64,000 nt of DNA from Lama guanicoe (taxonomy: Eukaryota): assembly GCA_013239625.1 (NCBI GenBank), contig MU053652.1, positions 4,453,902-4,517,901 on the forward strand, written 5' to 3'. Positions 9,401-20,350 of the stretch are shown one piece after another. The first letter of the stretch is position 1. Each line of letters begins with the position of its first letter. A program made the translations under genes and the position numbers. The notes below the pieces were generated by a model, which was not told the origin of the DNA, ran no database searches, and was given only the letters and a program-made list of their open reading frames with translations.

Positions 9401-12400
9401 GCATAGAGCTTCAGGTCTCCCTTGCCAGCTGCACGGGCATCAATGGTGAACTCTGCTGGCTTGTCCACGATGCAGCCAGTGGGCTCCAGGCCAGGCCCAA
9501 AGGCCTTCACCTGTGCAGGAGCAAGAGAAGAGGGCTGGGTTGGGTACTGGAGGAGAGCCATTCACCTTGTCCCGGGCCCACGGGCAGAAGCGGGGACCAC
9601 ACCTTGTCTGGGAAGCAGTCGGGTGGCGCTGGCTGGATGTGAGCAATGAAGGGTGAGTCACGGATGTCCTCATCGTCGCAGATGACATGCACAGCGTACT
9701 CCCCTGGCTCTGTGGGCCAGTACCGCACATCGCAGGAGCCATCTCCCTTGTCATCACACTCAATCTTGGCCTGCGAAGGCCCCTCAATGGAGAAGCCTAG
9801 GTGTGAGGTGGGGAGGGTTAGAGGGCACAAGAGGCAATTTGGACCCTCAGGCAGGTCCCCCATCACTCCCCTCCCCAGCATCACCACCCTGGTCACCCCT
9901 ATGTCCCATCTCCCCATCTCATCTCAGACTCGCCAGAATTCCTGCCTCCTGTTCCCCAGTCACTTCCCAGTGTCCCTCCATCACACCACTCCTCAGCACG
10001 CCCACCTGCTGCCATCCAGCCACTTACCCAGTGTTCCCACCTCGGTGCCAATGGCCTCCACCACAAAGTCAGCTGATTTTCCCACCTGGCCAGTTTCCAA
10101 ACCGGGACCCCAGGCCCGTACCTTCTGCACTCCTGCCTCTGGGCTCACCTGTACCTCAAAGGGGCTGAGGAAAGAGGGAGCTGGTGTCAATGCTGGGCGG
10201 TGCCCCCATCAGAGGTACTCCTCCTCCCTTCCCTCAGAGTCCCAGGCAGTCCGCCTCCCTCCTCCCACCCTATGAGGGCCCAAACAGGAAGGCACAGGGG
10301 TTGCATGGTGCTTACCTGCGGGGAATCGCATAGCCGCCCCACGTGATGGTCACCACGTACTTCCCGGGCACCACGGGGTAGTACTCACACTCGAACACAC
10401 CATCCCCAGCCTCCCGCACCTTCACTGGCTCCTCTGTGCCCTCTGAGGAGATGTGGGGAGTAGGGGTATCAATGGCCTGTGAGTCCCAGCTCCTCGATCC
10501 CCTTGGGATCCAGAACCCTGGGGACCCAGGCCCAGCCTGAGGGCAGTGTTGCTAGTAGGCAGTGCTGAAAGTCCAGGCAGGGACCACGCGTCATCCCCAT
10601 GCATAACACCCTGGGGTAGCCATAGGGCAGAGAGCAACATTTACAGCTTGCAGACAGTGAGACCGAGGCAGATATAAGACAATGTGCACTTTGTGTCTCT
10701 TTTAGAGCCCCAACAGGGGTACGTGGTGCTGGCTGTCACTGCCCTCAGGGAGTTAAACCACTGGCCGAATCTTCTCCCTGCACCCTGACCCTCACTGGCC
10801 CTGGGCCCTGCCACTCACTTGGTCCTTTGACTGTGACCTTGAGTTCCCCGCTGCCAGCACCCTTGGTGAACACCTTGAAGTCAGCCACCTCTTTGACACG
10901 TACACCCTTGGGCTGCAGGCCCCGCCCAGAGGCACGGCAGGCATTGGGGTTACAGGCTGGGAGGAAGAGAAGAGGCGGGGTTGGGGGCACTGAGGGGCCC
11001 TAGACAGATCCTCAGCCTCCCACCATTTGTCCCCCACCTCCCTGTGCACAGTCCTCCCGACACCCACAGGCACAGGCCATGGCCTCATGCAACCCTCCCC
11101 TGGGCTCCCTGGTGCCCCGGACACCACTGGGAGCCATGCTAGGCAGGGAGCCGGCCACAGCGCCCCTAGCCCCCCTCATCAGGCTGGTTATAAGAAACCC
11201 TTCCCGCTGGGCTTCTCAGAGTCAGTGTCGCCTGGGACAAAGGCATAGCAGAGCCTGGGCAGAGACTTGAGCAGAGACACAGGGAAGGGCGCCTTACCCA
11301 CCCCAAGGCCATCCACCTAGAACCATCTGAGCCTTCTCAGAGCTACCACAGCAGCTTTGGGAATGACATGCCACAAAACACTCAGCAACATCATGGAATG
11401 AGAGGTATTCATATAACAAGAAGCCTGCCACAGATCACAGGCAATTCATATAAAAGTCAGCCTGCCACAGAACACTGCCAGTGGCAATGAACCCAGACTT
11501 TGCTACTGAACACAGGCCAAAGAACAGTGATCTCAACCTGCCACGGAACAGATAAAATGGCATGGAACTTAAGGGTGCCACCAAACAGGCAATGACATAT
11601 AATCCAGGCCTGCCACAGAACAGACAATGGCACGGAACTGAGATCTTCATCACAGAACTCATCAGGCAAGTGGCAAGAAACGAGATCTGCCACAGAACAT
11701 AAGCAAAGGCATGGAACCTGGGGCCTGTCACAGAATGCCACGGAAGGGGGCGACTCCACACCGCTCGGGCCATGCCACACAGCACAGGTGAGGCCAGTCA
11801 GCTATGGCCATGCCTGGCCCCGCCTCCGCTGGCGTGTACTAACGTGGTGCCACTCTCCTGGCCTGGTGGACGATGGGCACAGAGGGGGCGAGAGGCGGCA
11901 AGGGCTCTGAGTGGTAGAGAGAGAACCGAGTGGGGGGAGTCACCACCTGAGGGCCTGCCCTACAGGGGCTCACCGTCCCTTTTCCCTCGCCCTTTCATGG
12001 TGGCGCCTGTCTGGTATCCTTCTCTGAGGCCTCCTGACCCTTCTCAGGGACGGGATGGACAGATGATCTCTCAAGAGCCCCACCCCTTGGCTCTTCCTTC
12101 TGCCCATTTTAAGCCTTCAGATGGCTCCCCTCAACCAACCCCTGGATTTAGTGCTTCATTTCCCATGAATCCTCAGACTCAGAATTTGGTGGAAATGCTC
12201 TCTGCGTCCTGGCCTCAGCGAGGGAGATGGTAAGGATGGGTGAAGGGCCTTTACCTTCTGCCACATGGACGGGGAAAGGACTGCGGGTGATGGGGGCACC
12301 AGCGAAGGCCACATGCACCGTGTGGGGCCCCTCCATCACAGGCCTGTATGTGCAGCGGAACGTGCTGTCGCCTTTGTCCTCCAGGGCCACCTCCACTGTG

Positions 12401-15400
12401 TCCCGCCGGCCCTGCGGGTCCACGATCACCACAGCAACATCACCAGTGCCAGCCCCTGTCACGACAATGGCGATTAGCCCCCATTCTGGACATGCACAGA
12501 TGCTCAGGGATCCCTCCCCCAAGACCACCCCTCTCTGGCTGGGACCCTGCCCCAGTCCCCCACGCACACCCTCCCCATGCTGTGAGGGGCTGCCCGCCTG
12601 AAACCTCCTAGGACCCTTCCTCACCTGCTGTGTAGATGTCAAAGTAGGTGGGTTTGTTGGCCACGTTGCCCACAGGCTCCAGGCCAGGACCACGGGCTGA
12701 CACCTTGTTGGCATCCCCCAGGGCCATGCCCACATTCACCTCAAAGGGGCTGCGTTCGATGTTCTGGCCAGCAAAGAGCACGGTCACCTGGGGGTCAAGG
12801 GCCAGAGATTAGCTAGAGGAGAGGAGCTAGAGGAGAGCAGCTCTGAGAGGGGGTGGAGGAGCAGAGCAGAGCCAAGGTGGGTGGGAGGTGGGTGGCCGGT
12901 GCACGGCCAGGATGTGAATGGAATGGGGAGGTCAGGGGAGGTCCTGCAGGGAGATACCTTGTGCAAGCCGGCGACCTTGGGCACATAGGAGACAGCGTAG
13001 GTGCGGTTCTTGTCATTGTTGGGAACCACTTTGGCCTATTGGGAACGGAAAAGACTGGCAATCACAGTGGCTGTAGCCCCTCCTGACCCCACAGCACCTG
13101 GAGGCCCAAACGGTAAGCACCCCGCCCCTGTCCCCAGCACAGTGGGTGACTCCAGCAGCCATCACCAGGCCAATGCTATTGTTGGCCTGTGGACTCTTGT
13201 CCCATCCCACGCTAATCCCCCTCGTCCCAGAGGCCTCTCCATACCTCCTCAGTGTGGCCCTCGGGATCCTCGATGTAGACCAGCACCTCGCCCACACCAG
13301 CATCCACCGTCTGCACGGTGAAGTGTGCGGGCTGCAGCACAGTGTTGCCCTGGGGCTCGATGCCTGAGGGACAGAAAGTGGAGACAGATAACTTAGGGAG
13401 ATCCTTCCAAGCCTGTGCCCAGCTGTCTGGGGCGGACTGCCAGGGGCTCAGCACATACCAGGCCCATAGGCAATGGCCTTCTTGGGGTTCAGCTGCTTGG
13501 AGCGAACAGGGGCACCAGGTTTGAGTTTGGCCTTGGGGAACTGGGACAGGTAGGTCATGACAGAATGCTCATCCACATTGGGGTCCACAATCTCCTCGGG
13601 GGCAATCACCTGCCACAGGGAGGAAGGGAGTTACAAGGTGCCCTCCTTACCCAGCAACCTCGGTTCTCCCCACATCCTGACCGGATATCCCTACAGACCC
13701 AACTCCATCCTTGGCCCTCTGGCCCCTAGACTCTCCCACTGCCTGATCCGTCAGCGTACCTGGGGCACCCCGAGCCAGTCGTCCGCCTGCTGCATGGCCT
13801 CCCGGGCGTTCTCCACAGGCTGGTTGGGGTCCCAGGCCTCCCAGTCAGGGCAGAGGCCTGGAGAGATGGCAGAGGGAGGCAATGATTAGGGGAAAGTGGT
13901 CAGCCAGAATACAGAGCATTTGCTGGCCCAAGACCGTCACAGGCTGTGAGTTCACGCTCCCTCCCACACAGCTCTGGGGCCCTGACCAGCCAGGTTTCTG
14001 CTGACCCTCTATGCTGTAGCCCATCAGCTGGGATGCCCATCGCTGTTTAGAGGAACGGCAGCCCTCCCGAGCACCAACAATGAGGCCTTTCTGTCCCAGC
14101 TGACGCAGCCTGGCACCAGCCCTGCCAGCCAGCCTCCTGCCTGCCCAGGCCCCAGCACTGATCCTGAACACCACACCCCTATAAGGGCACCCCTGGCAGA
14201 TCTCTCCTGCCTCATTCCAGCTGCCTCTGGGGTGGGCAGTCCCTGTCCGGCACAAGTCCCTGACCCATCTCCTGGAAGGTCTTCTCCCAGCTGCCCTGAA
14301 GCCCTAGATCTCCAAGCATTTCGCACATCAGCCTTGGGGCATGACTCTCTCTCCTTCCTAACTGCCCATTTGGGGAAACAAAGGCATTGAAGGGCCTATT
14401 GGGAGAGGATGGGTTCTTCTTTCTGGTCACCCAGAACCCAGCCCTTCTAATGGGAGGAATGCTGAGGTCACTCCTGGGAAGGCTTAATGCTAGGTTACTG
14501 GGTACTTGGTCCAAGCCAGAGCTGGAGAGGAGGGCAATGCTTACTGGTGGGGAGTGGACCAGCTCAAAGGCTGGAATCCATGACTGGCCAGAACAGCTGA
14601 GCTCACTGCTGGCAGTCGCATCAGCGTGGGCAATGGCTCAGCAGCTGGGAATGCTTCCCAGGCAGCCGGACGGTGCCCCCGCCTCCCACCCCCTGCTCCC
14701 GGGCTGACCCCAGGCTGGGGGAGGATTCCCCCAAGGGGCCATGGCTCCCTAGAGGCAGAGGGGAAGAGAAGACCTATCTTCCCAGGAGAGGAGGGTCAGA
14801 AAGGGAGTAACACATGGGGTAGGGCTCTAGTCCGTGATGCTTGTCTTCTTGTGGGCCCTGAGCTGCCCCCACCTGACTAGGCCGGGGCCTACACTGACTG
14901 AGGGTAGGGCTGGGTCACCTGCCACTGGGCAGGGTCACACCAGCCTCAGCCCACATCATCCTGGGTCTCATCCCCTTCTCAAAGCTGTCCTAGGGTCTCA
15001 TAAAGAGGAGCCTCTGTGGGTCTAAGTCCTGGCCTTCTTTCTACAAGTCCCACTGCATTTCCTCTCTCCCGGCTGAGCAGAAATGGCATCCTTATAGCAA
15101 ACTAGGAAGTTCACAGAGCAGGGAGTCGAGGTCTTGGGCTCTGGTTCAGTGCAGCCTCAGATAAGCTGTGTGATCTTGGACAAGTCACAGGCCTTCTCCA
15201 GACCTCAGTGACCTTGTCTGTAAAATCTTCTGCTATTGCAGGAATTGGCAACTCATCAGGGAGGGCCTAACTCTGGCAGTGGTTCCCAGCTGGACCAGGG
15301 GGTCCTGATCCCCCAGCCCTGAGACACTCATTCTGACAAACATAAGCCTCGGCACCACCAGTTCAGCTCAGCTCTCCCTCCAGGGTCAGGGGTCCATGGA

Positions 15401-18400: not shown

Positions 18401-20350
18401 AGAGGTGTGCTCAGGAAGGATGAGGCCTGGAGAGGGGCTGGGCGCCCCCGCAGCAGGGAGGAGAGGGGAAGGCTGAGCCATTTCCTATAAAGTCTCTGTG
18501 AGGCCCCAGGCCCTCCCCTTGAGACCCCATATGGGACAGTCAATCCTGTCGGTCAAATCTCAGCTGCTGAGGGATGAAGGCCCCAGGGATAACTCCTCTC
18601 TGACCCCCCCCCAAACCACACCCGCTCTCAAGCAGCCCTCAGCCCCACTACACACACCAGGGCCCCCTCCCCCACCCCCTGTCCTCAGGCTTGTCCTTCT
18701 GGAAAGCTCAGAGACATCTGCTGTGTCACGGAGGCAGGGCTATTTCCAGGCCAGAGCGGGTTGGGGGGGGCAGTTTTGGGGCAGGAGGGGGTAAGGCCTA
18801 GAGAGGGGACTGGACAGGGCAAAGGGCCCCAGACTGACCTCAGCAGCTAATTCAGGAGGCCTAGAGATACCCTAAGGGAGAGTGGGGTTGGACAGACATT
18901 CAATTATCTGAAGAAGTCTCTGGGGCATCCTGGTGGGGCACCTGACCCCCTGTGAAACTCCCTTCCAGGGGCCCCGGAGTGCATCTACGCTCCCCCTCAC
19001 CACGCTCTTTCTTGCAAATCATAGCAGGGCTCTTAAGAGCTCACCACAGGGGTAGGGGGTCTTCCCCCACCCTCCAGCCTGCGGGGATGACTGCAGGCCT
19101 GTGAGGGGAGTGCCAGCCCCTCTCCTCTCAGAGTCCACCCTAGGCTCCCCAGCTCCCAAGCCTAAAGTGCCTCCCCACCCCCACCCAGCACTGACACACC
19201 TTCCAAATCTGGTTACACTCAATGACTTCCTCCCTTCTCTAGGCCTTCCCTCCCTCCTCTCAGCCCAGACCATTAGCTGCAGCCAATCCGGGTTTAGAAG
19301 GTGGGCTGAGGCCGGGCATGGACAGGAGGGAGCCCCCTCCCCCGCTGGCTGAAGCCGGTAGAGGACAGGCAGGGGTTAAGGCTCCCTGCGCTCGCTCAGG
19401 ACCTTTTTAGGTTTCCGAAGCTGGGCTCTACAGGCTCTGGCCCCTGGGCCTGAACCCAGCTGCCGAGGACATGCCTGCGGGGGCCCCAGGCCCCGCGCCC
19501 GCCCGGTCACCAGCTCTCCCCTGAGCCCTGTGATCGGGCAGTGGTTGGGACCTGCCTTCTGCTCCTCCTTCCCGTTGGAAGTGCCGGGAGGCTGGGAAGC
19601 CATTTGCTTTGTTTGGGGGGAGGTGCCCCCAGGAATCAATAATAGGCATTGGCCCTGTCCTCTCAAACAAGGGCTGGGGTTGCGGATGGCGGGAAAGGGG
19701 AAGATGAGTAGAGGCGGGTTGGTGGGAGTGTGCGGGGGAGACTGAAGCTGGAGGATTAAGAAACGGACTGGTCTGGACTCTCCCGGACCTCTTTGGGATG
19801 CCGGCCGTCCAGAGGGGTGTGAAGGCAGAGCCCGAGGGGTCTGCATCGGCAGGCGAGAGCCGGGCTGGGGTTCTCTCCCGGTGCCGTGGCGCTCTCTGCC
19901 CTTTCGGCTTCCCGCGCGCCCACCCAACACCTGAGTCCCCTGTCCCCATGGGTCAGCCCCGCCGCGGAGCACTACCCCTCCACACCCGCACTGACCGATG
20001 GACACGAGCTTGATGTGCTCGCGCTCAAGGAACTCGAGGGCCACAGACACATTCTCCAGCTTCATCTGGCGGAAGTTGGGGCGCGGGTGAAACTTGCGGT
20101 ACATGCGCTTCTGGCTGAGGACCTCGAGCAGCGCGATGAGGCGCAGCCCGTCGCTGAGGTCGCGCTGTAGGTCGGTCAGGCGCTTGCCCACGCACTTGAG
20201 GTGCTCGTTGCACCACCGCGTGAAAGTGTTCTGTTGGATCTTCTTCCATGGCGCGTCCTCCGCCAGGTCCTTCTCCGTGGACGGCATGTCGTCCGCTTCG
20301 TCGCCCAGACCGAGGCCCGGGGCCTCGGAGTAGCCGCTGTTGTTCATCAT
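282..20350 (-). CDS. FLNC: Filamin-C, coding exons 1-33 (gene continues beyond window start): actin-binding CH1/CH2 domains, Ig-like repeats 1-15, hinge 1, most of repeat 16
   Basis: Spliced translation [53 protein letters not shown]... matches filamin C; 33 exons with GT-AG ends and consistent phases; synteny with CCDC136/OPN1SW. Confidence 0.99.
739..838 (-). CDS. FLNC: FLNC exon 32, 100 nt
   Basis: [33 protein letters not shown]. Confidence 0.96.
1152..1232 (-). CDS. FLNC: FLNC exon 31 (hinge 1, alternatively spliced), 81 nt
   Basis: [27 protein letters not shown]; phase 0-0. Confidence 0.9.
1690..1937 (-). CDS. FLNC: FLNC exon 30, 248 nt
   Basis: [14 protein letters not shown]...NSPFHVL. 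Confidence 0.96.
2053..2076 (-). CDS. FLNC: FLNC exon 29, 24-nt microexon
   Basis: VSIGGHGL; ttccAG acceptor, G|GTGAGT donor, phase 1-1. Confidence 0.92.
2199..2388 (-). CDS. FLNC: FLNC exon 28, 190 nt
   Basis: [17 protein letters not shown]...SKCLVT. Confidence 0.96.
2464..2620 (-). CDS. FLNC: FLNC exon 27, 157 nt (AAG acceptor)
   Basis: [19 protein letters not shown]...LTVQIL; acceptor cccctcAAG. Confidence 0.95.
3131..3254 (-). CDS. FLNC: FLNC exon 26, 124 nt
   Basis: [14 protein letters not shown]...DQEVPR. Confidence 0.96.
3334..3501 (-). CDS. FLNC: FLNC exon 25, 168 nt
   Basis: [16 protein letters not shown]...VLGPT. Confidence 0.96.
4234..4394 (-). CDS. FLNC: FLNC exon 24, 161 nt
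   Basis: [18 protein letters not shown]...GGRPIP. Confidence 0.96.
4643..4805 (-). CDS. FLNC: FLNC exon 23, 163 nt
   Basis: [19 protein letters not shown]...RFTVET. Confidence 0.96.
4918..5091 (-). CDS. FLNC: FLNC exon 22, 174 nt
   Basis: [15 protein letters not shown]...YTAYEE. Confidence 0.96.
5788..6385 (-). CDS. FLNC: FLNC exon 21, 598 nt
   Basis: [14 protein letters not shown]...SGPGVEPH. Confidence 0.96.
6762..7024 (-). CDS. FLNC: FLNC exon 20, 263 nt
   Basis: [15 protein letters not shown]...PPDPSK. Confidence 0.96.
7117..7234 (-). CDS. FLNC: FLNC exon 19, 118 nt
   Basis: [19 protein letters not shown]...QGLNS. Confidence 0.96.
7446..7615 (-). CDS. FLNC: FLNC exon 18, 170 nt
   Basis: [16 protein letters not shown]...YTAVQQ. 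Confidence 0.96.
7705..7795 (-). CDS. FLNC: FLNC exon 17, 91 nt
   Basis: [30 protein letters not shown]. Confidence 0.96.
7972..8132 (-). CDS. FLNC: FLNC exon 16, 161 nt
   Basis: [15 protein letters not shown]...VLFANQ. Confidence 0.96.
8284..8407 (-). CDS. FLNC: FLNC exon 15, 124 nt
   Basis: [18 protein letters not shown]...SEAGQ. Confidence 0.96.
8636..8779 (-). CDS. FLNC: FLNC exon 14, 144 nt
   Basis: [17 protein letters not shown]...PKSPFR. Confidence 0.96.
9397..9510 (-). CDS. FLNC: FLNC exon 13, 114 nt
   Basis: [21 protein letters not shown]...LKLYAQ. Confidence 0.96.
9603..9796 (-). CDS. FLNC: FLNC exon 12, 194 nt
   Basis: [20 protein letters not shown]...CFPDK. Confidence 0.96.
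10028..10164 (-). CDS. FLNC: FLNC exon 11, 137 nt
   Basis: [22 protein letters not shown]...EVGTL. Confidence 0.96.
10316..10442 (-). CDS. FLNC: FLNC exon 10, 127 nt
   Basis: [22 protein letters not shown]...GGYAIPR. Confidence 0.96.
10819..10956 (-). CDS. FLNC: FLNC exon 9, 138 nt
   Basis: [17 protein letters not shown]...VTVKGP. Confidence 0.96.
11369..11777. repeat. Degenerate ~37-nt tandem array with internal inverted repeats in FLNC intron 8
   Basis: TGCCA-like anchors at 11426, 11463, 11501, 11539, 11576, 11611, 11648, 11688, 11726; consensus (+) CCTGCCACAGAACA-N~3-8-(T/A)GGCA(T/A)GGAAC. Confidence 0.85.
11844..11906 (-). CDS. FLNC: Putative alternative FLNC cassette exon 8a (63 nt, [21 protein letters not shown])
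   Basis: Acceptor ctcggttctctctctaccactcAG, donor C|GTTAGT, phase 1-1, length a multiple of 3, no stop in the FLNC frame. Confidence 0.7.
12255..12455 (-). CDS. FLNC: FLNC exon 8, 201 nt
   Basis: [16 protein letters not shown]...SPFPVHVAE; phase-1 donor G|GTAAAG. Confidence 0.96.
12625..12787 (-). CDS. FLNC: FLNC exon 7, 163 nt
   Basis: [17 protein letters not shown]...YFDIYTA. Confidence 0.96.
12958..13035 (-). CDS. FLNC: FLNC exon 6, 78 nt
   Basis: [26 protein letters not shown]. Confidence 0.96.
13245..13363 (-). CDS. FLNC: FLNC exon 5, 119 nt
   Basis: [15 protein letters not shown]...EGHTEE. Confidence 0.96.
13459..13609 (-). CDS. FLNC: FLNC exon 4, 151 nt
   Basis: [24 protein letters not shown]...AIAYGP. 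Confidence 0.96.
13760..13857 (-). CDS. FLNC: FLNC exon 3, 98 nt
   Basis: [33 protein letters not shown]. Confidence 0.96.
15420..15668 (-). CDS. FLNC: FLNC exon 2, 249 nt
   Basis: [18 protein letters not shown]...DNCAP; AG/GT ends. Confidence 0.97.
16025..16345 (-). mobile_element. Old L1 3' fragment (L1M-type)
   Basis: Resembles antisense L1 3' UTR (ttgacatacaacaaactgtacat...gaatcatacagtatgta); boundaries approximate. Confidence 0.6.

What the first reader, a model, noticed from the sequence alone, without database searches (positions are those of the whole stretch)
11340..11950. Exon 8a plus array may form a three-way switch (skip / in-frame insert / poison) at the position paralogous to the FLNA poison exon
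Seen: the 8a donor overlaps an in-frame stop (CGT TAG), so using the acceptor without this donor ends translation right after Ig repeat 2 and puts the hairpin array in the post-stop RNA. The acceptor carries a CUCUCUCU tract (PTBP-type), and GCAUG (RBFOX-type) motifs lie downstream at 11809-11813, 11771-11775 and 11367-11371. Established, from recall and to be verified: FLNA has a PTBP1-repressed poison exon after its exon 9, which corresponds to FLNC exon 8 because FLNA exon 1 is non-coding. Inference: an ancestral filamin dosage/NMD module, elaborated in FLNC.
Basis: inference. Interest (0 to 1): 0.7.

Follow-up and report, generated by a model that had tools for sequence, protein, structure and literature searches.

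The report
Filamin C's shrunken optional proline exon
This mammal's filamin C muscle gene carries a 63-base optional exon, already shown in mouse muscle to add 21 amino acids, that is likely the front half of a longer exon kept from sharks to lizards and lies in the same intron where filamins A and B have decay-triggering exons, but the proposed decay-triggering third form in filamin C has no support.

Summary
The sequence features are real: FLNC (minus strand) has a 63-nt frame-keeping exon at 11906-11844, whose donor CAC|GTTAGT overlaps CGT TAG, with a CU tract, three GCAUG and a degenerate ~37-nt array. The exon is published. Mouse Flnc 'exon 8a' (63 nt, PMC10770608) is ~10% included in normal muscle, <1% in a DM1 model, and its detected junction peptide is what this window predicts. 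Position is confirmed: the 57-nt FLNA and 98-nt FLNB NMD exons lie in the equivalent intron. But 8a shows no DNA likeness to them. It matches the first half of a 40-45-residue proline-rich optional exon of non-mammalian filamin C, which this scan already noted in cartilaginous fish. The poison arm is unsupported: the mouse cluster has only skip and inclusion junctions, no Flnc event in this intron was found in two neural AS-NMD datasets, and Flnc rises on Ptbp knockdown while Flna and Flnb fall. A stop this close to a donor is common (5 of 20 constitutive donors). GCAUG is not enriched over local shuffles, and the hairpins are weak. No RNA of this species was examined. Verdict: a known two-way coding cassette; a third arm remains possible (~0.15).

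The parts
12255..12455 (-). FLNC coding exon 8 (201 nt), closes Ig repeat 2; phase-1 donor AAG|GTAAAG
11907..11929 (-). Acceptor of exon 8a with CTCTCTCT tract (11923-11916) and AG (11908-11907)
   Evidence: sequence; matrix score 9.2, joint second of 96 AG in the intron
11844..11906 (-). Exon 8a, 63 nt, phase 1/1, adds 21 proline-rich residues between Ig repeats 2 and 3
   Evidence: 63-nt mouse exon and junction peptide in PMC10770608; match to vertebrate insert core
11838..11843 (-). Donor GTTAGT of 8a; read through, it gives CGT then stop TAG (11841-11839)
   Evidence: 8 of 11 matches to the U1 consensus, best of 85 GT in the intron, matrix score 4.4; two unnamed ORFs end at the same Pro-Arg
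11809..11813 (-). GCAUG 31 nt after the donor (GGCAUG)
   Evidence: not enriched over local shuffles
11771..11775 (-). GCAUG 69 nt after the donor (GGCAUG)
11350..11784 (-). Degenerate array of about 11 units, period mostly 35-40 nt, core TGTTCTGTGGCAG; UG-rich; role unknown, likely an intronic splicing element or neutral old repeat
11367..11371 (-). GCAUG in the last array unit
11292..11300 (-). Donor-like TGG|GTAAGG just past the array; if used with the 8a acceptor it would give a 609-nt stop-containing exon (untested)
   Evidence: matrix score 6.9, second of 85 GT
10819..10956 (-). FLNC coding exon 9 (138 nt), start of Ig repeat 3

Best explanation
Exon 8a is a 63-nt frame-keeping optional exon of filamin C that is likely skipped or included in this species as in mouse muscle, where it adds 21 proline-rich residues between Ig repeats 2 and 3, and it is likely the shortened front half of a 40-45-residue optional exon kept from sharks to lizards. 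Shown in mouse: about 10% inclusion in normal muscle, translation across the 8a-9 junction, loss in a myotonic dystrophy model. Inferred: a decent acceptor and a weak GTT donor make skipping the default; MBNL activity (directly, or through muscle state) likely promotes inclusion, possibly through the UG-rich array downstream; the insert likely lengthens the Ig2-Ig3 linker. Mammals appear to have lost the ancestral second half with its PxKP[RK][RK] motif, a predicted SH3-type docking site. The stop under the donor is likely a by-product of a non-consensus +3 T at phase 1. Any read-through product would likely be degraded, but nothing shows that it is made or regulated.
For: [quoted passage not shown] Its cluster has 3 arcs with introns of about 340, 1250 and 850 nt, against 348, 1298 and 887 here. 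Peptide VAPPCNPNACR was found in 5 of 5 WT and 0 of 5 DM1 samples, identical to the junction this window predicts. Of 180 proteins of 400 residues or more, 82 carry an insert at this junction (81 of them 40-45 residues), 83 do not, 15 were not parsed; the same species have both forms (e.g. Anolis sagrei, Pleurodeles, Acipenser). Against a 12-column core of that insert, 8a scores 11.9 bits: best of 1263 12-mers in the three sense frames of intron 8, 68 of 20000 shuffles, third of 4836 AG-started peptides in the window, in the right frame, phase and offset. Two unnamed ORFs keep the peptide at 63-83% identity.
Against: No RNA of this species was examined. The whole-insert test without a chosen core was not significant (945 of 5000 shuffles), BLASTP against the gecko protein found nothing significant, and the core columns were picked after seeing the alignment. 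A 40-residue query holding 8a found no protein of 71-2000 residues, and none of the named or near-identical mammal-type filamin-C proteins retrieved carried the insert; full-length mammalian clusters were not among the 120 of 394 hits listed. YGCY is not enriched in the array over local shuffles (10 vs 10.2), so direct MBNL action is unshown. DM1 muscle also raises Flnc protein, so the change may be indirect.
Confidence: 0.78

Rival explanations
1. Three-way switch: besides skip and insert, the 8a acceptor is used without its donor, either to exon 9 (retained downstream intron) or to the donor past the array (609-nt exon). This puts a stop at about codon 494 and sends the RNA to NMD in a regulated way, like the FLNA and FLNB exons.
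For: Same intron as two proven NMD exons. The donor is weak by matrix (4.4; 2 of 20 constitutive donors score lower), and GTT occurs in only 1 of 20 constitutive donors. Two unnamed ORFs also end at the same Pro-Arg, so a stop there is kept in 3 of 3 sequences seen. A donor-like site lies just past the array. NMD targets are hidden without inhibition, and cassette tables and LeafCutter miss retained introns.
Against: Only 3 arcs in the mouse cluster. Flnc has no row in the mouse brain table S2 and only the 99-nt hinge event in tables S3-S5 of PMC13078869 (one file cut when stored), and no hit in 12 of 13 files of PMC11188260, where Flna and Flnb appear. In Neuro2a, Flnc counts rise from 7.8/8.7k to 11.4/12.4k on Ptbp1/2 double knockdown while Flna falls from 38.5/38.8k to 17.0/18.7k and Flnb from 8.8/9.0k to 3.9/4.2k. 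The immediate stop adds nothing to NMD, since the next in-frame stop is 37 codons later. These data are neural, not muscle.
Confidence: 0.14
2. Exon 8a is a decaying relic: low-level inclusion without function, with the array a neutral old tandem duplication.
For: Only ~10% inclusion in mouse. The ancestral second half is not detectable in the intron (best 2.6 bits, other frame). No insert in 29 of 30 bird proteins checked, 1 unparsed. Shorter in primates. Array stems are broken in several units.
Against: The peptide and frame are kept across mammals by the paper's statement and in two further ORFs; the product is detected as protein and changes with disease.
Confidence: 0.2
3. The extended form yields a stable short ABD+Ig1-2 protein through cleavage and polyadenylation inside intron 8.
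For: The stop falls exactly after Ig repeat 2 plus 22 residues; the array is UG-rich.
Against: None of 13 poly(A) hexamers and no TGTA in 11843-10957. No such protein was retrieved; the 504-residue tamarin model ends by reading through the exon 8 donor, not through 8a.
Confidence: 0.03

Closest known systems
Mouse Flnc cryptic 'exon 8a' (PMC10770608; passages, section 25, rows of supplementary files 1-4, file 5 whole)
   Same: 63 nt, between exons 8 and 9, similar intron lengths, identical predicted junction peptide: this is the ortholog.
   Different: The paper does not, in the parts read, link it to the non-mammalian exon, the FLNA/FLNB exons, the overlapping stop or the array.
40-45-residue proline-rich insert in predicted filamin-C isoforms of sharks, rays, bony fish, lungfish, amphibians and squamates (NCBI/UniRef models)
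   Same: Same junction; optional; core V/I-x-I-V/I-x-Q-S/A-x-x-x-P-P partly matched by 8a in frame and offset.
   Different: About twice as long; carries a basic, proline-rich second half (PxKP-basic motif in 61 of 82) that 8a lacks.
FLNA poison exon (exonN; Zhang et al. 2016, paper not held; seen through passages of reviews PMC13542418 and PMC8652244 and table rows of PMC13078869 and PMC11188260)
   Same: Lies between the 201-nt and 138-nt exons, phase 1, CU-rich acceptor; a 57-nt match with in-frame TAG is present in this genome.
   Different: The stop is inside the spliced exon, so inclusion itself triggers NMD; far longer CU tract; gene falls on Ptbp knockdown; no DNA alignment with 8a.
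FLNB 98-nt NMD exon (table rows of PMC13078869 and PMC11188260)
   Same: Same intron position and phase; a 98-nt match is present in this genome.
   Different: Frameshifting; cycloheximide raises inclusion from 0.16 to 0.84; aligns in register with the FLNA exon but not with 8a.

Membership tests
Poison (AS-NMD) exon | The spliced exon itself brings a premature stop or frameshift | tested here: not met
   63 nt, phase 1/1, open frame into exon 9; stop only if the donor is missed
Poison (AS-NMD) exon | Stop more than about 50 nt upstream of a later junction (for the hypothetical extended form) | tested here: met
   Stop at codon ~494 with at least 12 further mapped exons; 541 nt before the donor past the array
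Poison (AS-NMD) exon | Isoform stabilised by NMD inhibition | tested here: inconclusive
   No Flnc intron-8 event in two neural NMD datasets, which are not muscle and mostly list cassettes; no RNA of this species examined
PTBP1-repressed filamin poison exon (FLNA/FLNB type) | Located in the intron between the Ig2-closing exon and the 138-nt exon | tested here: met
PTBP1-repressed filamin poison exon (FLNA/FLNB type) | Sequence homology to those exons | tested here: not met
   FLNC-FLNA best score 47 (2 of 60 shuffles) lies in a G-rich stretch away from 8a; FLNC-FLNB 39 (19 of 60); FLNA-FLNB 51 (0 of 60), in register at the acceptor but partly pyrimidine-driven
PTBP1-repressed filamin poison exon (FLNA/FLNB type) | Gene level falls on PTBP loss | tested here: not met
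   Published Neuro2a counts: Flnc up, Flna and Flnb down
Frame-preserving alternative cassette exon | Skip and inclusion junctions both observed, product translated | tested here: met
   In mouse, from the paper; not observed for this species
Vertebrate FLNC Ig2-Ig3 proline-rich exon | Same junction and conserved core | tested here: met
   (68 of 20000 shuffles; best of 1263), with the weaker unanchored test not significant
Vertebrate FLNC Ig2-Ig3 proline-rich exon | Second half with PxKP-basic motif, 40-45 residues in all | tested here: not met
RBFOX-activated exon | Downstream (U)GCAUG beyond chance and response to RBFOX loss | tested here: inconclusive
   Not enriched over local shuffles, enriched over other FLNC introns; response not testable
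MBNL-dependent exon | Inclusion lost when MBNL is sequestered; direct binding | tested here: inconclusive
   Lost in HSA-LR muscle (that this model sequesters MBNL is recalled); YGCY not enriched; binding not testable
Structured RNA family (miRNA/snoRNA cluster) | Rfam match or folding beyond shuffles | tested here: not met
   14 matches at E 0.65-9.8, all far below gathering scores

The most novel reading that the evidence does not exclude
One intron of the pre-duplication filamin gene held a regulated exon that took three fates: poison exons in FLNA and FLNB and a coding exon in FLNC. In mammals the FLNC exon was cut in half by a new weak donor whose +3 T is kept because it doubles as a stop. 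The repeat array then tunes a choice between that donor and a second one just past the array, giving muscle a hidden NMD arm that sets filamin C dose and is disturbed in myotonic dystrophy.
Probability: 0.12. Interest if true: 0.65.

Novelty: already known. Interest (0 to 1): 0.3.

Why it matters
FLNC truncation and dose changes cause cardiomyopathy and myopathy (recalled), so a hidden poison arm would mark deep-intronic variants and an antisense target. On present evidence there is instead a minor coding isoform that is lost in a DM1 model. The modest new points are the statistical link of mammalian 8a to the ancient exon, the loss of its predicted docking motif, and the shared intron with the FLNA and FLNB NMD exons. 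I did not find these links in print in ten full-text searches, which cover open-access papers only; the scan's own notes had already made the first link from fish genomes.

Tried and rejected
Sequencing runs: 24 runs listed, 8 on record as RNA holding 0.26-0.40 of the words; no reads were laid, so this is no evidence and RNA use in this species stays open. Metagenome scan with a degenerate 8a motif: 1 hit, an unrelated chance match, so no orthologous mammalian DNA was obtained and conservation of the array, GCAUG sites and distal donor is untested. Rfam: nothing. Tandem Repeats Finder does not report the array; an ungapped lag test was marginal (lag 37, 57 of 1000 shuffles). Single-sequence fold of a shark protein with the insert: mean pLDDT 38, uninformative. 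PDB search: no solved Ig2. Pfam: nothing on the 8a frame. Two further hits (P0157, P0160) are unrelated repetitive proteins and were dropped. Zhang et al. 2016 is not held. Passages of PMC10842930 (FLNC there means full-length reads), PMC13478325, PMC4161394 and bioRxiv 2024.10.05.616792 did not concern this exon. The splice-site matrix is crude (20 donors, 19 acceptors of this gene): it scores the real FLNA and FLNB poison acceptors only -1.9 and 1.1, so its ranks are weak evidence either way. Rejected: the stop-donor overlap as a sign of poison function, and 'hairpin array' as an established structure.

Full report
Gene and anatomy. The window holds FLNC on the minus strand. Mapping a bat filamin-C protein gave 20 coding exons from the ATG at 20350; exon 8 is 12455-12255 and exon 9 is 10956-10819, a phase-1 intron of 1298 nt. 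Exon 8 closes Ig repeat 2. In the intron, an AG at 11908-11907 preceded by CTCTCTCT and a donor CAC|GTTAGT define 63 nt (11906-11844) that keep the frame into exon 9. Read past the donor, the frame is [22 protein letters not shown] then TAG. GCATG lies at the three stated places. A degenerate array with core TGTTCTGTGGCAG spans about 11784-11350.

What exceeds chance. The array does: an 11-mer recurs 7 times within one mismatch against at most 3 in 300 shuffles, and the stretch is single-copy in the genome. Its structure does not clearly: z -0.74 for the whole, -1.8 with short-range pairing, +0.9 to -2.0 for ten units. Five GGCA..UGCC pairs occur (0 of 2000 shuffles, but repeated units are not independent), with pairing probability 0.2 or less in context and broken stems in other units. 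GCATG is 3 against 2.0 in local shuffles (667 of 2000) but 3 against 0.39 on the background of other FLNC introns; none has the 5' U. TGTT and TGTG are high against that background (10 vs 1.4, 14 vs 3.0) but not against local shuffles (115 and 464 of 1000). The CU content upstream of 8a is far below that of the FLNA exon (6 vs 26 4-mers; 49% vs 80% pyrimidine), though its 9-nt CU run is longer than at 19 constitutive acceptors. A stop within three codons of the donor occurs at 5 of 20 constitutive donors, and without the TAG the frame would stop 37 codons later, so the overlap says little about NMD.

The exon is published. [quoted passage not shown] The cluster has three arcs only, with introns of about 340, 1250 and 850 nt, against 348, 1298 and 887 here. 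The peptide VAPPCNPNACR was detected in 5 of 5 wild-type and 0 of 5 DM1 samples and is what this window's 8a-9 junction encodes. Skip and insert are therefore established in mouse and inferred for this species, whose RNA was not examined.

Ancestry. A search with exon 8 returned a gecko model with a proline-rich insert at this junction. A search with that region listed 120 of 394 hits. Of 180 retrieved proteins of 400 residues or more, 82 have an insert (81 of 40-45 residues), 83 do not and 15 were not parsed; carriers are sharks, rays, ray-finned fish, lungfish, amphibians and squamates, often beside insert-free isoforms of the same species; 29 of 30 bird proteins lack it and one was not parsed. 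The sample favours insert carriers, because the query held the insert. Scored against the whole insert, 8a was not significant (945 of 5000 shuffles), as prolines dominate. Against the ungapped 12-column core, chosen afterwards, it scores 11.9 bits: first of 1263 12-mers in intron 8, 68 of 20000 shuffles, third of 4836 AG-started peptides in the window, in the expected frame and offset. The second half, with a PxKP-basic motif in 61 of 82 inserts (its reading as an SH3-type ligand is recalled), is not detectable in the intron. Two unnamed ORFs carry the 8a peptide at 83% and 63% identity over 30 residues and both end at the same Pro-Arg, so a stop there, and likely the +3 T, is kept in 3 of 3 sequences seen. 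That fits a conserved weak donor as well as a conserved stop.

Paralogs. This genome's FLNA and FLNB were fetched. In the equivalent phase-1 intron FLNA has a 57-nt candidate with an in-frame TAG and FLNB a 98-nt frameshifting one. Table rows of PMC13078869 list human FLNA 57-nt and FLNB 98-nt NMD_in exons between 201/198-nt and 138-nt exons, with upstream introns of 222 and 729 nt against 238 and 744 here; PMC11188260 lists both in mouse with PTBP1 predicted to inhibit them; two reviews confirm PTBP1 repression of the FLNA exon (passages). Position is thus verified. FLNA and FLNB introns align in register at the acceptor (51 vs 34.7 +/- 3.5, 0 of 60 shuffles, partly pyrimidine-driven); FLNC aligns with neither at 8a. 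Common descent of 8a and the poison exons is neither shown nor excluded at this distance.

The poison arm. For it: shared intron, weak donor (4.4; 2 of 20 constitutive donors lower), conserved stop, and a donor-like TGG|GTAAGG just past the array that would give a 609-nt exon with the stop 541 nt upstream. Against it: no fourth arc in mouse muscle; only the 99-nt hinge event for Flnc in PMC13078869 and no Flnc hit in 12 of 13 files of PMC11188260; and on Ptbp1/2 knockdown in Neuro2a, Flnc rises about 1.4-fold while Flna and Flnb fall about 2.2-fold. These data are neural and largely cassette-based, and the muscle data had no NMD inhibition, so the arm is unsupported rather than excluded. A short protein by intronic polyadenylation lacks any of 13 signal hexamers.

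Mechanism and verdict. Most likely a two-way, muscle-regulated coding cassette (0.78): skipped by default through its weak donor, included in a minority of transcripts when MBNL-type activity is intact (inferred from the DM1 model), lengthening the Ig2-Ig3 linker by 21 residues, and descended from the front half of an ancient exon. It works like a frame-keeping cassette, not like the FLNA/FLNB poison exons whose intron it shares. Earlier notes of this scan on cartilaginous-fish FLNC had reached the ancient exon independently and pointed me to a published mouse exon, which I then found and read. Already known; interest 0.3.

Noticed in passing
window 11864-11844, minus strand: An AG inside 8a scores as high as the 8a acceptor in the crude matrix (9.4); with the same donor it would give a 19-nt frameshifting exon, a second possible poison route.
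   Followed up: partly
window 11300-11292, minus strand: Donor-like TGG|GTAAGG right after the last array unit; would bound a 609-nt exon made of 8a plus the whole array.
   Followed up: partly
L005:5934-5990 (+): This genome's FLNA 57-nt poison exon with in-frame TAG and a long CU tract upstream; sizes match the published human event.
   Followed up: yes
L006:2438-2535 (+): This genome's FLNB 98-nt frameshifting exon; aligns in register with the FLNA exon at the acceptor, suggesting that the two poison exons share an origin.
   Followed up: partly
window 11091-11086, minus strand: The only full UGCAUG in intron 8 lies 130 nt upstream of exon 9, outside the finding; another GCAUG at 11139-11135.
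   Followed up: no
window 11750-11400: Array units appear to alternate between two types (repeat families with 72-77-nt spacing; lag 76 second), hinting at a dimeric unit.
   Followed up: no
proteins P0116, P0117, P0183-P0196 and other bird filamin-C models: No insert in 29 of 30 bird proteins checked (1 unparsed): birds may have lost the exon or leave it unannotated.
   Followed up: partly
window 11037-10957, minus strand: G-rich and C-rich arms just upstream of exon 9 give weak mirtron-like Rfam matches, far below thresholds; the G-rich part is also the best local match to FLNA intron sequence.
   Followed up: no
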